Part shown: in pieces, positions 15,001-18,000 of the stretch
Layout: every line of letters starts with the position of its first letter
How positions within the stretch are numbered: position 1 is the first letter of the stretch
Assembly (NCBI RefSeq): GCF_050920415.1
Contig: NZ_CP169309.1
Strand: one strand, 5' to 3'
DNA from: Escherichia coli
Lineage (GTDB): Bacteria > Pseudomonadota > Gammaproteobacteria > Enterobacterales > Enterobacteriaceae
Length of the DNA: 64,000 nt
Position numbers: made by a program

Positions 15001-18000
15001 CGTCAAAACTAAAGGGAAGCGAAACAGAACAATCCCCCTTGATGATGAACTTCTATCCGAATTACCTGAAACGAAAGGCGCTCTGTTCCCCAAGCCCTGC
15101 TATAACGCTTTCCGCTCTGCTTTGGAACGCGCAGGCATTGAACTCCCCTCCGGCCAGCTTACCCATGTACTGCGCCATACATTTGCCAGCCACTTTATGA
15201 TGAACGGCGGGAACATTCTGGTTCTGCAAAAAATTCTCGGCCACGCTGACATCACTATGACAATGCGTTATGCCCACTTCGCCCCAAGCCACCTTGAAGA
15301 TGCTGTGCGACTTAACCCCCTAAAATGTCGCAAAAATGTCGCGACAGCTTAGAAATACTGCCGAATACTCACAGATATTAACTAACGTAACTTATTGATA
15401 ACACTGTAACTTATTGTTTTTCGTAGATAGTTGATGCTTTATAATATAGCCTGTGCTATATCTGTATGTAATGCAATCATCCCTCAAGGATCGACGGGAT
15501 TAGCAAGTCAGGAGGTCTTATGAATGAGTTCAAGAGGTGTATGCGCGTGTTTAGTCATTCTCCCTTTAAAGTACGGTTAATGCTGCTCTCTATGTTGTGC
15601 GATATGGTCAACAACAAACCGCAGCAAGATAAACCTTCCGATAAATAGCGGCGTCGCGGTACGCCGCTTCACTCCTGCTTTTATGCAGGCACAACGCGTT
15701 TTGCTCTGAAAAACCCCACTTTTTGTCGGATTTGCAATCCCCTTCGCAAAAGATTTGTTCGTCAGTAGTTGACCTGAACGGCAGCTCGCTCTATCTTCTT
15801 GCAGCCCTGCGTATATTGCGGCTCGCGGATGCGGACCCTTTTCCCCTCTTCACGCACTCTTGCAGGTATTGACCCTTGACGCCAGGGTAAGCACATGGCG
15901 TTTGTTACGATAGTGGCATATGAATTTAACCCTCAAAGAATCGCTTGTTACCCGTAGCCGGGTATTTAGCCCGTGGACTGCGTTCTACTTTTTACAGTCG
16001 CTATTAATTAACCTCGGCTTAGGTTACCCCTTCAGTTTGCTATACACCGCCGCATTTACGGCTATTTTGCTTTTGCTATGGCGAACATTGCCTCGCGTAC
16101 AAAAAGTTCTGGTCGGTGTCAGTTCGCTGGTGGCGGCTTGTTATTTCCCTTTTGCTCAGGCCTACGGCGCGCCTAACTTCAATACCTTGCTGGCATTGCA
16201 TTCCACCAATATGGAAGAGTCGACCGAAATCCTGACGATTTTTCCGTGGTACAGCTACCTGGTCGGCTTATTTATTTTTGCGCTCGGCGTAATAGCAATC
16301 AGGCGGAAAAAAGAGAGCGAAAAAGCGCGCTGGAATACCTTCGACAGTCTGTGTCTGGTATTCAGTGTGGCGACATTTTTTGTTGCTCCCGTGCAAAATC
16401 TGGCCTGGGGCGGCGTATTTAAACTGAAAGATACTGGCTATCCGGTATTTCGTTTTGCTAAGGATGTCATCGTCAATAATAACGAGGTGATTGAAGAGCA
16501 AGAACGGATGGCAAAACTTTCCGGAATGAAAGATACCTGGACGGTCACTGCCGTTAAGCCGAAGTATCAGACCTATGTGGTGGTGATCGGTGAAAGTGCG
16601 CGTCGCGATGCCCTCGGTGCCTTTGGCGGTCACTGGGATAATACCCCGTTTGCCAGCAGCGTTAACGGTTTGCTTTTTGCTGACTACATTGCTGCCAGTG
16701 GCTCCACGCAGAAATCGCTTGGCTTAACACTCAATCGCGTAGTCGATGGCAAACCACAGTTTCAGGATAACTTTGTCACCCTGGCAAATCGCGCGGGCTT
16801 TCAGACGTGGTGGTTTTCCAATCAGGGCCAAATCGGCGAATACGATACCGCCATCGCCAGCATCGCCAAACGGGCAGATGAAGTGTATTTCCTGAAAGAC
16901 GGTAATTTTGAAGCAGATAAAAACACTAAAGACGAAGCGTTACTGGATATGACCGCGCAGGTGCTGGCGCAAGAACACTCGCAACCGCAACTGATTGTTT
17001 TACATCTGATGGGCTCACATCCACAGGCCTGCGACCGGACACAAGGCAAATACGCAACCTTTGTGCAATCGAAAGAAACATCATGCTATCTCTATACCAT
17101 GACACAAACGGACGATTTGTTGCGTAAGCTGTACGACCAGTTACGCAATAGCGGCAGCAGCTTCTCGCTGGTTTACTTTGCGGACCACGGTCTGGCCTTT
17201 AAAGAACGCGGCAAAGACGTGCAATACCTTGCCCATGATGATAAGTATCAGCAAAATTTCCAGGTGCCTTTTATGGTCATTTCGAGCGACGATAAAGCGC
17301 ATCGGGTGATTAAAGCCCGCCGTTCAGCCAATGACTTTTTAGGCTTTTTCTCGCAGTGGACGGGAATTAAAGCGAAGGAAATTAACATCAAATACCCGTT
17401 TATATCTGAGAAGAAAGCCGGGCCGATATACATCACCAACTTCCAGTTACAGAAGGTGGATTACAACCATCTCGGAACCGATATTTTCGACCCGAAACCT
17501 TAAAACAAAAAATCCGCCCCGAGAGGCGGATTTTTTATATCACCGAAGTGATTAGAAGCGGTAACCAACACCGGCAATCCAGGTGCCTACGTCAACGCTA
17601 CGAATACGGCTCTGCTCGTAAGAGAAGTCCAGAGCAACGTTTTCCATCGGGTTGAACTGCAGACCAGCACCGTAGGAGAAACCGTAGTCGCTGGTGTCGT
17701 GTTTGTAGGTCGGGTATTCAGTGGTCTGGAATTTACCATAACCCACACCCACTACACCGTAGATGCTTGCCCAGTCGTTAATGCGGTAAGCCGGACCAGC
17801 AGTGATGCCGTAGTACTGGTTTTTGTTGTAGTCACCAGAGCTTGCAGTACGGCTTTTCTCGGTGTAAGTGAAAGAACCGATCACACCCAGCGGGCTGTTG
17901 TCTTCTTCATAGCGGTATTTCAGGTTGAAACCGCCCATTTTGTTCATTTGGCCCTGAGCGTCGCTCTGTGCGTAACCGCCAGTTACGGTAGAAGTCGCAG

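What the first reader, a model, noticed from the sequence alone, without database searches (positions are those of the whole stretch)
15353..15519. Prophage-host junction: direct repeats and the mntS operator within about 170 bp
Two 11-bp direct repeats GTAACTTATTG (15387..15397, 15406..15416) lie just past the int stop and look like integrase arm-type sites. The MntR-box-like palindrome follows directly. Phage-end transcription or binding proteins could interfere with manganese-responsive control of mntS.
Basis: inference. Interest (0 to 1): 0.35.

Follow-up and report, generated by a model that had tools for sequence, protein, structure and literature searches.

The report
Prophage attachment arm at mntS operator
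This stretch is the integrase-side end of a phage-186-like prophage that recombined into the control region of the E. coli manganese gene mntS. The noted repeats are more likely a docking site for the host DNA-bending protein IHF than integrase arm sites, so this is an ordinary phage attachment site in an unusual, regulatory place.

Summary
GTAACTTATTG occurs exactly at 15387-15397 and 15406-15416, just after the int stop (15352). The palindrome ATATAGC-CTGT-GCTATAT (15444-15461) is the native mntS upstream MntR-type box.

Comparing attB, attP and both prophage junctions places an 11-bp common core, TATAATATAGC, at 15440-15450.

The "arm-type site" reading is not supported:
- The motif is missing from all eight distal arms.
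- The second copy is exact in only 2 of 20 related arms.
- A better candidate exists: TGTCGC pairs with an 11-bp period (15326-15342). They recur at +72/+83 in six of eight otherwise unrelated distal arms.
- These pairs sit at -114/-103 from the core, against -115/-104 for the predicted arm motifs of phage 186.

Copy 1 is a perfect IHF consensus (15388-15400, minus strand) kept in 20 of 20 arms. It lies where 186 attP has its IHF footprint.

No terminator separates int from mntS, so read-through or altered Mn control is possible but untested.

The site is occupied in 29 of 5,421 complete E. coli genomes that match the locus. This is a new member of a known kind, of modest interest.

The parts
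11461..11682 (-). apl-like gene (73 aa). Presumed excisionase and switch regulator of the prophage; context only.
   Evidence: ORF and translation. It occupies the position of apl in the cII-apl / cI-int layout annotated for relatives and for phage 186. There was no Pfam hit, so the function is inferred from position.
11819..12403 (+). CI repressor gene, first gene of the lysogenic operon that runs toward int and mntS.
   Evidence: Pfam Phage_CI_repr plus Phage_CI_C. Annotated 'phage repressor protein CI' in relatives.
12461..14265 (+). KAP-family P-loop NTPase cargo gene between cI and int, split into two ORFs in the window.
   Evidence: Pfam KAP_NTPase on the N-terminal ORF. A 1-nt deletion in an A-run near 12692 separates it from the intact 594-aa gene of JNE25-001.
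14312..15352 (+). Tyrosine integrase, 346 aa, 62% identical to phage 186 Int.
   Evidence: Pfam Int_N (residues 61-168) plus Phage_integrase (177-325). tblastn to 186 Int gives 61.7% identity.
15322..15346 (+). Proposed Int arm-type sites. Tandem AAAATGTCGC x2 with TGTCGC at 15326-15331 and 15337-15342 (11-bp period), plus the overlapping inverted GCGACA at 15341-15346. They lie inside the 3' end of int.
   Evidence: Repeat family D2. The TGTCGC(A) pair recurs at +72/+83 or +73/+84 from the core in six of eight otherwise unrelated distal arms. Its distances of -114/-103 match 186 TGGCG at -115/-104. In SC434, only the copy next to the core keeps the pair after a duplication of the int 3' end.
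15355..15380 (-). Candidate excisionase (Apl-like RDF) sites. Minus-strand CAGTAT, GAGTAT and TAATAT at exact 10-bp spacing.
   Evidence: Phased pattern ATAYT-N5-ATAYT-N5-ATAYT (the pattern was derived post hoc). It resembles CAATAT / ATCTAT / CAGTAT in the apl-proximal half of the switch, which is conserved between the window and L007. It lies at -85..-60, against 186 Apl sites at -92..-46. Inference only.
15387..15397 (+). Direct repeat copy 1, GTAACTTATTG. It overlaps a perfect IHF consensus, TATCAATAAGTTA, on the minus strand at 15388-15400.
   Evidence: The consensus is kept in 20 of 20 related arms, and the only substitutions fall at N or R positions. It lies at -52..-40, against the 186 IHF footprint at -57..-28.
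15406..15416 (+). Direct repeat copy 2, GTAACTTATTG. It is probably the degenerate A+T-rich 5' flank of the same IHF site, or a weak second site.
   Evidence: Exact in only 2 of 20 arms, with 5 of 11 columns variable. As an IHF consensus it has one mismatch (read from the sequence). It lies at -34..-24 from the core, partly inside the equivalent of the 186 IHF footprint (-57..-28).
15440..15450 (.). att common core, TATAATATAGC. Strand exchange must lie within TATAATATA (15440-15448).
   Evidence: The sequence is identical in attB (K-12), in attP (circular viral contig with a 41-bp terminal overlap), in the int-proximal junctions and in the distal junctions. The 573 and EH09-18-41 types share only TATAATATA.
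15444..15461 (.). MntR-type operator palindrome, ATATAGC-CTGT-GCTATAT, fully retained on the mntS side of the junction.
   Evidence: Perfect 7-bp inverted repeat. It is identical in K-12 and invariant in all junction sequences. The motif occurs only here and upstream of dps in the window. MntR repression of mntS is reported in PMC4361602 and PMC9315381. Binding to this exact sequence comes from Waters et al. 2011, which is not held and is cited from memory.
15467..15472 (+). Candidate mntS -10 hexamer, TGTAAT (start site near 15475-15479). The alternative -10, TATAAT, lies at 15440-15445 inside the core.
   Evidence: Inference. The 205-nt rybA transcript (PMC4361602) and the 3' hairpins at 15647-15689 put the start site at roughly 15465-15500. 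From memory, the rybA 5' end is 43 nt upstream of the ATG. Sequence is conserved through TGTAATGCA in a diverged host (L012). Not verified.
15520..15648 (+). mntS (42 aa), on the same strand as int.
   Evidence: ORF. RefSeq annotation in K-12 and in lysogens.

Best explanation
Positions 15353-15519 hold three things in sequence: the int-proximal arm of the attachment site of a 186-type (Peduoviridae) prophage, the recombination core, and the mntS control region.

The phage integrated by tyrosine-recombinase exchange within TATAATATA(GC) (15440-15450). This sequence belongs to the palindromic mntS regulatory region and overlaps the left half-site of the MntR box.

By position, the arm is organised like phage 186 attP:
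1. Int arm-type sites: the TGTCGC pair at 15326-15342, inside the end of int.
2. Phased candidate excisionase sites at 15355-15380.
3. An IHF site whose consensus is in repeat copy 1 (15388-15400) and whose A+T-rich flank covers copy 2.
4. The core.

In this model IHF bends the arm so that Int bound at the arm sites also reaches the core. The GTAACTTATTG repeats are therefore IHF-site sequence, not Int arm sites.

Shown here: the junction, the core, the retention of the operator, the distribution of the motifs, and the spacing match with 186. Inferred: which protein binds which site.
For: Junction and core:
- K-12 homology starts at 15436.
- A four-way comparison of attB, attP and both junctions gives the core TATAATATAGC.
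- attP is seen directly on a 29.6-kb viral contig whose two ends overlap by 41 bp.
- The site is empty in 5,392 genomes and occupied in 29, all of them with this int.

Phage type:
- Int is 62% identical to 186 Int.
- The cII-apl / cI-int layout matches that of 186.

Arm-type sites:
- TGTCGCA is the only 7-mer shared by seven of eight distal arms. It forms pairs at fixed +72/+83 in six of them.
- Spacing is -114/-103, against -115/-104 in 186.
- In SC434, only the copy next to the core keeps the pair.

IHF:
- A perfect WATCAANNNNTTR lies at 15388-15400. It is one of 8 matches in 64 kb and the only one in the prophage part of the window.
- It is kept in 20 of 20 arms, with substitutions only at unconstrained positions.
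- Its position, -52..-40, falls inside the equivalent of the 186 IHF footprint, -57..-28.
- GTAACTTATTG is absent from distal arms.
Against: - There are no binding data for this phage. All site assignments rest on analogy and comparative sequence.
- The 186 arm-type sites used as the reference are themselves labelled 'predicted' in the GenBank record.
- The IHF consensus is loose: 8 matches in the window against 3.55 expected.
- The 20 int-proximal arms are close relatives (differences at 0-11 of 165 aligned positions among the junctions), so conservation has little power.
- Only one of eight distal arms has a perfect IHF consensus, although 186 has IHF footprints on both sides.
- Why copy 2 repeats 8-11 bases of copy 1 is not really explained by an A+T-rich flank.
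- On the minus strand both copies begin CAATAA, one mismatch from the CAATAT-type motif proposed for the excisionase.
Confidence: 0.6

Rival explanations
1. One reading: the two GTAACTTATTG copies are arm-type binding sites for the N-terminal domain of the integrase.
For: They are direct repeats in an att arm just past int, between int and the core. An exact 11-mer pair is unlikely by chance (0.7%).
Against: - There is no copy with 3 or fewer mismatches at a consistent place in any of eight distal arms, whereas arm-type sites of 186, P2 and lambda occur on both arms.
- The spacing is 19 bp, not the 11-bp tandem seen in 186 and in the TGTCGC pairs.
- Copy 2 varies at 5 of 11 columns.
- There is no resemblance to the 186 arm consensus RARTGGCGRTR, whereas AATGTCGCAAA does resemble it.
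- The repeats lie at -53..-24, far closer to the core than the 186 arm sites at about -118..-92.
Confidence: 0.06
2. The repeats are operators for the Apl-like excisionase. They would extend the phased array that starts at 15355, so the arm carries five or more RDF sites, as 186 attP does.
For: - RDF sites are short direct repeats (PMC7498355).
- On the minus strand both copies start CAATAA, one mismatch from CAATAT / CAGTAT in the Apl-conserved half of the switch.
- In 186, the Apl sites (-92..-46) overlap the IHF footprint.
- The orientation flips between switch and att in both phages.
Against: - The spacing from the last phased site to copy 1 is 17 bp, and between the copies 19 bp. RDF arrays have a 10-11 bp repeat.
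- The full 11-mer is not found in the switch region.
- The proposed Apl motif itself is inferred, not demonstrated.
- The variable columns in copy 2 include the CAATAA part, which becomes CAACAA or CAGTAA.
Confidence: 0.2
3. The exact 11-bp pair has no function of its own. It is a chance or recently converged similarity within an A+T-rich att arm.
For: A single base (C in the window against G in most relatives, at 15410) makes the pair exact in the window and in L011. Other lineages have only 8-10 of 11 matches. The interval is 35% G+C.
Against: Even the 10-of-11 version persists across lineages whose int genes differ by up to 10%. Copy 1 coincides with a perfect, conserved IHF consensus at the expected position.
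Confidence: 0.12

Closest known systems
Coliphage 186 attP / Int / Apl / IHF system (GenBank U32222 annotation)
   Same: - Int is 62% identical and the cII-apl / cI-int layout is the same.
- The element order is the same: arm-type sites, RDF sites, IHF site, core.
- The distances nearly coincide: arm motifs at -115/-104 against -114/-103, IHF footprint at -57..-28 against consensus at -52..-40.
- There are two further arm sites on the distal arm.
   Different: - The target is the 3' end of tRNA-Ile (ileY) with 36 bp in common. Here the target is a non-tRNA intergenic promoter/operator with only 9-11 bp in common.
- The arm motif is TGTCGC, not TGGCG.
- The Apl homologue shows no evident sequence similarity to 186 Apl.
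- 186 has orf69 between int and att. Here the arm sites lie inside the end of int.
- The distal arm sites are at +72/+83 rather than +114/+125.
P2 and P2-like coliphage attachment sites (P2, WPhi, PhiD145), as reviewed in PMC3448106
   Same: They share the architecture: a tyrosine Int with an N-terminal arm-binding domain, a core and two arms, IHF, and a Cox/Apl-type RDF. P2-type phages typically integrate between genes rather than into tRNAs.
   Different: The integrase here is of the 186 type. That paper says 186-type integrases tend to use tRNA genes. None of the sites it lists is mntR-mntS, and the PhiECO1-3 prophages it lists occur in strains not among the 29 occupied genomes.
Lambda attP (arm-type sites P1, P2, P'1-3; IHF sites H1, H2, H'; Xis sites)
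   Same: The logic is the same. A bivalent integrase bridges arm and core through IHF-induced bends, and the RDF binds phased direct repeats on the int-proximal arm (established knowledge; PMC7498355).
   Different: The integrase subfamily, the motifs, and the numbers and positions of the sites all differ. The target is unrelated.
Prophages that integrate into or next to host regulatory or coding sequences and alter their expression (for example Listeria phi10403S in comK, B. subtilis SPbeta in spsM, Stx phages in wrbA or yehV)
   Same: Site-specific insertion separates a host gene from part of its native control region. Excision restores it.
   Different: Here the coding sequence, the operator and the likely -10 of mntS stay intact. 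No regulatory consequence has been shown.

Membership tests
Attachment-site junction of a tyrosine-integrase prophage | An integrase gene lies next to the junction, and prophage genes are on one side only. | tested here: met
   int is at 14312-15352 (Pfam Int_N plus Phage_integrase). 186/P2-type prophage genes fill 1-15352 and host genes follow from mntS onward.
Attachment-site junction of a tyrosine-integrase prophage | A short core sequence is shared by attB, attP and both prophage junctions. | tested here: met
   TATAATATAGC is present in K-12 attB, in attP on a circular viral contig, in 19 int-proximal junctions and in 7 distal junctions. Two lineages share only TATAATATA.
Attachment-site junction of a tyrosine-integrase prophage | An uninterrupted empty site exists in related genomes. 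| tested here: met
   5,392 of 5,421 complete E. coli genomes carry the intact mntR-mntS spacer and 29 are interrupted.
Integrase arm-type binding sites (as claimed for GTAACTTATTG) | The same motif is present on both arms of attP. | tested here: not met
   No consistent match with 3 or fewer mismatches was found in eight distal arms.
Integrase arm-type binding sites (as claimed for GTAACTTATTG) | Position and form are comparable with the arm sites of the nearest characterised integrase. | tested here: not met
   The 186 predicted arm sites are 11-bp tandem RARTGGCGRTR at -118..-92. The 11-mers are 19 bp apart at -53..-24 and unlike that consensus.
Integrase arm-type binding sites (as claimed for GTAACTTATTG) | They are bound by the Int N-terminal domain. 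| not testable with these tools
   This needs a gel shift or footprint with purified Int.
Integrase arm-type binding sites (alternative candidate: TGTCGC pairs) | They occur on both arms, in tandem, at conserved distances from the core, and resemble the motif of the related phage. | tested here: met
   The pair lies at 15326-15342 on the int-proximal arm and at +72/+83 in six of eight divergent distal arms. The -114/-103 spacing equals that of 186. AATGTCGCAAA resembles AATGGCGATAA. The SC434 duplication keeps only the copy next to the core. Binding was not tested.
IHF binding site | It matches the consensus WATCAANNNNTTR. | tested here: met
   TATCAATAAGTTA at 15388-15400 (minus strand) has 0 mismatches. 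The match is retained in 20 of 20 related arms.
IHF binding site | It lies between the arm-type sites and the core, where a bend is needed. | tested here: met
   It lies at -52..-40 from the core, inside the equivalent of the 186 IHF DNase I footprint at -57..-28.
IHF binding site | A dA+dT-rich element lies 5' of the consensus. | tested here: inconclusive
   The 5' flank on the minus strand (15401-15416, which includes copy 2) is A+T-rich but has no clear A-tract (read from the sequence).
IHF binding site | IHF binds and bends the DNA. | not testable with these tools
   This needs a footprint or gel shift with purified IHF.
MntR operator | An inverted repeat of the ATAGC-N4-GCTAT type lies upstream of a gene repressed by MntR. 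| tested here: met
   ATATAGC-CTGT-GCTATAT is at 15444-15461. The motif occurs only here and upstream of dps in 64 kb, against 0.08 expected. mntS is repressed by MntR:Mn (PMC4361602). The mntH-type consensus is quoted from memory.
MntR operator | MntR binding to this sequence has been demonstrated. | not testable with these tools
   The primary paper (Waters et al. 2011, PMC3194919) is not held.

The most novel reading that the evidence does not exclude
The target may not be neutral. Strand exchange occurs inside the MntR operator and promoter of mntS, and the cI-(NTPase)-int operon points into mntS with no terminator in between. Two consequences are possible.

(a) Lysogeny could change manganese homeostasis. 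It replaces the DNA upstream of the promoter, puts IHF, Int or Apl next to the operator, and allows MntR-independent read-through into mntS. MntS overproduction makes cells Mn-sensitive by inhibiting MntP.

(b) Mn-loaded MntR sitting on the core could gate integration and excision according to manganese status.

A related possibility concerns the other junction. There the native mntS upstream DNA plus the TATAAT of the core could drive the inward-pointing cargo (defence) genes.
Probability: 0.12. Interest if true: 0.6.

Novelty: new member of a known kind. Interest (0 to 1): 0.3.

Why it matters
- It defines a previously undescribed attachment site for a 186-type integrase, at least within the literature and phage records searchable here. 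The core is TATAATATA(GC) in the mntR-mntS spacer. A full candidate site map follows: arm-type TGTCGC pairs, an IHF site and possible RDF sites.
- The site map gives a compact recombination system with a very short core that could be tested directly.
- It is a clean natural case for asking whether a prophage inserted exactly at a metalloregulator's operator changes the host response. MntS inhibits the Mn exporter MntP, and excess MntS is toxic in manganese-rich conditions (PMC4361602; bioRxiv 10.1101/2023.06.02.543501).
- Only about 0.5% of complete E. coli genomes carry the prophage, so any effect is strain-specific rather than general.

Tried and rejected
- **mntS start site and MntR footprint.** The primary papers were not retrievable: Waters 2011 by DOI and PMC id, Hershberg 2003, and Wright 2024 by PMC id. 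The Wright preprint and three other papers gave no promoter detail. A search for the remembered rybA coordinate found nothing. The start site therefore remains an inference.
- **Rfam.** A scan of 15200-15950 found no family.
- **Promoter and terminator scan.** It found no plus-strand promoter or terminator in 15250-15750. It found only a minus-strand promoter-like site over the box and a minus-strand terminator-like hairpin at the int stop.
- **RNA fold of the int-mntS spacer.** The spacer is less structured than shuffled sequence (z = +1.07), so the repeats are not a terminator.
- **Deposited phages with this int or att.** There was no near match. The best protein hit, Salmonella phage S.Kent 1-2-1 (76%), has a cargo gene after int and no comparable att.
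- **The PhiECO1-3 / PhiSEN1 site of Nilsson et al. (PMC3448106).** Rejected as the same site, because E. coli HS, CFT073 and ATCC 8739 are not among the 29 occupied genomes.
- **Similarity of the arm to the switch region.** TTAGATATTG-type matches turned out to be halves of three TTAG-N7-CTAA palindromes, probably CI operators. They were rejected as an explanation for the 11-mers.
- **Literature on prophage integration at mntS or mntR.** Nothing relevant was found.
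Full report
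**1. What is at the coordinates**

The sequence reads as the finding says. The int ORF (14312-15352, plus strand) ends at 15352. GTAACTTATTG occurs at 15387-15397 and again at 15406-15416. A perfect 7-bp inverted repeat, ATATAGC-CTGT-GCTATAT, lies at 15444-15461, and the 42-codon mntS ORF starts at 15520.

An exact direct repeat of at least 11 bp arose in 0.7% of 5,000 composition-matched resamples of the 167-bp interval.

**2. The junction**

The window is E. coli.
- K-12 DNA aligns from 15436 to 21700 (mntS, opgE, ompX, rhtA, dps and onward). Nothing to the left of 15436 matches the K-12 mntR side.
- In K-12, mntR and mntS are divergent neighbours with 185 bp between their start codons.
- Among complete E. 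coli genomes with a match, 5,392 of 5,421 have this spacer uninterrupted. Exactly 29 are interrupted, and 29 have this int next to mntS.
- Relatives show a prophage of about 32 kb. It has a 186-type early region (cII, apl-like gene, cI, int), P2-family head genes and variable cargo.
- The window starts inside this prophage, so the other junction is outside it.
- Int carries Pfam Int_N plus Phage_integrase and is 62% identical to phage 186 Int.

**3. Placing the core**

Four states were obtained:

| State | Left flank | Core | Right flank |
|---|---|---|---|
| attB (K-12) | AGCAATAGCTA | TATAATATAGC | CTGTGCTATAT |
| int-proximal junction (window) | AGTTGATGCTT | TATAATATAGC | CTGTGCTATAT |
| distal junction (for example SC434, L015) | AGCAATAGCTA | TATAATATAGC | TTTCGTTA... 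|
| attP | AGTTGATGCTT | TATAATATAGC | TTTCGTTATCA |

- attP comes from a 29.6-kb viral contig whose two ends overlap by 41 bp. It is therefore a circular or excised form.
- The common core is TATAATATAGC, window 15440-15450.
- Two lineages (573 and EH09-18-41) share only TATAATATA, so strand exchange must occur within 15440-15448.
- The core overlaps the left half-site of the palindrome (15444-15450) and contains a perfect TATAAT.
The core sits on the control region.
- The whole palindrome and everything downstream are invariant in all 19 junction sequences, so the operator itself survives integration.

**4. The palindrome**

It is the native K-12 sequence. ATAGC-N4-GCTAT occurs only twice in the 64-kb window, against 0.08 expected: here, and at 19543-19556 about 60 bp upstream of dps.

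mntS (rybA) is repressed by MntR:Mn2+ (PMC4361602; PMC9315381). From memory, dps is also a reported MntR target. The paper that mapped the site, Waters et al. 2011, is not held, so the footprint and the transcription start site were not verified.

The start site can only be bracketed:
- The 205-nt transcript and the 3' hairpins at 15647-15689 put it at roughly 15465-15500.
- This fits a -10 of TGTAAT (15467-15472) and my recollection of a 43-nt leader.
- The alternative -10 is the TATAAT in the core.
- Either way, host DNA upstream of about -38, or of about -13, is replaced by phage DNA in lysogens.

**5. Are the 11-mers arm-type integrase sites?**

The evidence says no.
- Arm-type sites occur on both arms. 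In eight distal arms from different lineages the 11-mer has no consistent match, even allowing 3 mismatches.
- The distal arms are otherwise unrelated in sequence. Yet TGTCGCA is present in seven of eight, and it forms a tandem pair with an 11-bp period at +72/+83 (or +73/+84) from the core in six.
- The same pair lies on the int-proximal arm at 15326-15342.
- In the GenBank annotation of phage 186, the predicted arm-type consensus is YAYCGCCAYTY, that is RARTGGCGRTR on the int strand. It has three sites on the int side and two on the far side.
- The 186 TGGCG motifs lie at -115, -104 and -92 from the crossover. The window's TGTCGC motifs lie at -114 and -103 from the core. AATGTCGCAAA also resembles AATGGCGATAA.
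- Strain SC434 provides a natural experiment. About 95 bp of the int 3' end is duplicated on either side of an 830-bp cargo gene. The copy that stays at the normal distance from the core keeps AAAATGTCGCAAAATTGTCGC. The copy that now ends the intact int ORF has decayed to AAAATGCCGCAGC. The pair is therefore kept for its position relative to the core, not for coding.

**6. What the 11-mers most likely are**

- Copy 1 overlaps a perfect IHF consensus, TATCAATAAGTTA, on the minus strand at 15388-15400. It is one of eight matches in 64 kb and the only one in the prophage part.
- In 20 related arms the consensus is perfect every time. The two substitutions seen within it fall at an N position and at the R position, where A becomes G.
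- The consensus lies at -52..-40 from the core. The DNase I footprint of IHF on 186 attP lies at -57..-28.
- Copy 2 (-34..-24) lies partly within the same footprint-equivalent region, on the side where IHF sites carry a degenerate A+T-rich element.
- Copy 2 is exact only in the window and L011. It is GTAAGTTATTG in most relatives and varies at 5 of 11 columns.
- The best reading is a single IHF site of about 35 bp that bends the arm so that Int bound at the TGTCGC pair can also hold the core.

Between the arm sites and the IHF site there are three minus-strand hexamers at exact 10-bp spacing: CAGTAT, GAGTAT and TAATAT (15355-15380) (the pattern was chosen post hoc).
- They resemble CAATAT / ATCTAT / CAGTAT in the apl-proximal half of the switch region.
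- That half is conserved between the window and EH09-18-41. The two phages have nearly identical Apl homologues (71 of 73 residues) but different CI-side operator sequences.
- They lie where 186 has its Apl sites, and the strand flips between switch and att as it does in 186.
- They are candidate excisionase sites, by inference only.
- Because both 11-mers begin CAATAA on the minus strand, an RDF role for them cannot be excluded. Their 17-bp and 19-bp spacings do not fit the 10-11 bp rule (PMC7498355).

**7. Consequences for mntS**

What can be shown is only the set of preconditions.
- cI, the KAP-type NTPase cargo gene and int all point toward mntS on the same strand.
- No terminator-like element was found on the plus strand between 15250 and 15750.
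- The spacer RNA is less structured than shuffled controls (z = +1.07).
- In 186, the predicted terminator of the lysogenic operon lies beyond the core on the distal arm. By analogy, integration would remove any such element from behind int.
- Read-through into mntS, replacement of promoter-upstream DNA, and competition among IHF, Int, Apl and MntR at adjacent sites are all physically possible. None is demonstrated.
- Excess MntS makes cells manganese-sensitive by inhibiting MntP (PMC4361602; bioRxiv 10.1101/2023.06.02.543501), so a phenotype is conceivable.
- A consensus scan also finds a minus-strand promoter-like site (-35 ATTACA, -10 TATATT) over the box, pointing toward mntR. Integration would cut it off from mntR, but a second promoter-like site closer to mntR remains attached. 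These are pattern matches only.

**8. Comparison with what is known**

This works like, and by position matches, the 186 attP / Int / Apl / IHF system.

It differs in several ways:
- The target is a promoter/operator rather than the 3' end of a tRNA-Ile gene.
- The core is much shorter, 9-11 bp against 36 bp shared.
- The arm motif is different.
- The Apl homologue has no evident similarity to 186 Apl.

No paper in the searchable library mentions an att site at mntS or mntR. The survey of P2-like integration sites does not list it and notes that 186-type integrases usually use tRNA genes (PMC3448106). No deposited phage has a near-identical int.

**9. Verdict**

- The junction and operator claims are supported.
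- The arm-type claim should be replaced by an IHF site, with the true arm-type candidates 60 bp further left.
- The regulatory claim is open.
- This is a new member of a well-known kind of element. Its modest extra interest comes from the exact overlap of the crossover region with a metalloregulator's operator.

Noticed in passing
window 12461-14265 (indel near 12692): A KAP-family P-loop NTPase cargo gene sits between cI and int, where most relatives have nothing. In the window it is split into 80-aa and 497-aa ORFs by a 1-nt deletion in an A-run (A7 against A8 in strain JNE25-001, where it is an intact 594-aa gene). This is either a real frameshift or a homopolymer sequencing error.
   Followed up: partly
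window 19543-19556: The only other ATAGC-N4-GCTAT in the window (ATAGCCGGTGCTAT) lies about 60 bp upstream of dps. It looks like the MntR box of the dps promoter and served as an internal control for the motif.
   Followed up: partly
L003 30202-31938; L005 31196-33055; L006 13006-13545; L007 29624-30397; L008 35664-38464; L009 30479-31961: The distal (mntR-side) end of related prophages carries a different cargo in each lineage: an AIPR protein; a PIN + STAS-like + ATPase trio; serine acetyltransferase; DUF6338 proteins. The cargo is always transcribed inward from the junction. That junction keeps the native mntS-upstream DNA plus the TATAAT of the core, so host-promoter capture is conceivable.
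   Followed up: no
L009 (strain SC434), about 900-1710 in locus coordinates, between int and mntS: About 95 bp of the int 3' end is duplicated on both sides of an 830-bp insertion carrying a 193-aa hypothetical gene on the opposite strand. Only the copy next to the core keeps the TGTCGC pair.
   Followed up: yes
L015 (7.4-kb metagenome contig), L008 35364-44767 (Combat13F7), hit H153 (PSJ-16): Short remnants occupy the same site: a 7.3-kb element bounded by both junctions, a remnant of about 9 kb that keeps cI-int, and a truncated int. This shows decay in place.
   Followed up: no
window about 11728-11802: Three 15-bp palindromes of the form TTAG-N7-CTAA (TTAGTCAGTATCTAA, TTAGACAATATCTAA, TTAGATTTAATCTAA) lie in the apl-cI switch. 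They are probably the CI operators. The corresponding region differs in EH09-18-41, which has a nearly identical Apl homologue.
   Followed up: partly
L012 (IMG/VR contig 2791354791_000011), 8699-8921: The same int-proximal arm and core are joined to a clearly diverged mntS (protein ...CDMINSKPEQDKPSDK). The phage group therefore uses the same site in a host with a distinct mntS allele, possibly another species. The host was not identified.
   Followed up: no
window 15443-15472 (minus strand); L001 6008-6037: A promoter-like site on the mntR-directed strand (-35 ATTACA, 18-bp spacer, -10 TATATT) overlaps the MntR box and the att core. Integration would separate it from mntR by about 32 kb. This is a consensus match only.
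   Followed up: partly
window 15342-15363 (minus strand): A terminator-like hairpin with a T-run lies on the minus strand over the int stop codon. It could stop antisense transcription entering int from the host side. It overlaps the palindrome TGTCGCGACA formed by the second arm-type site.
   Followed up: no
window 59444-59468 (minus strand): A second exact match to the phased pattern ATAYT-N5-ATAYT-N5-ATAYT (ATATTTGCGAATATTCTGTTATATT) lies in host DNA far from the prophage. It was not examined and may be chance or an unrelated regulatory repeat.
   Followed up: no
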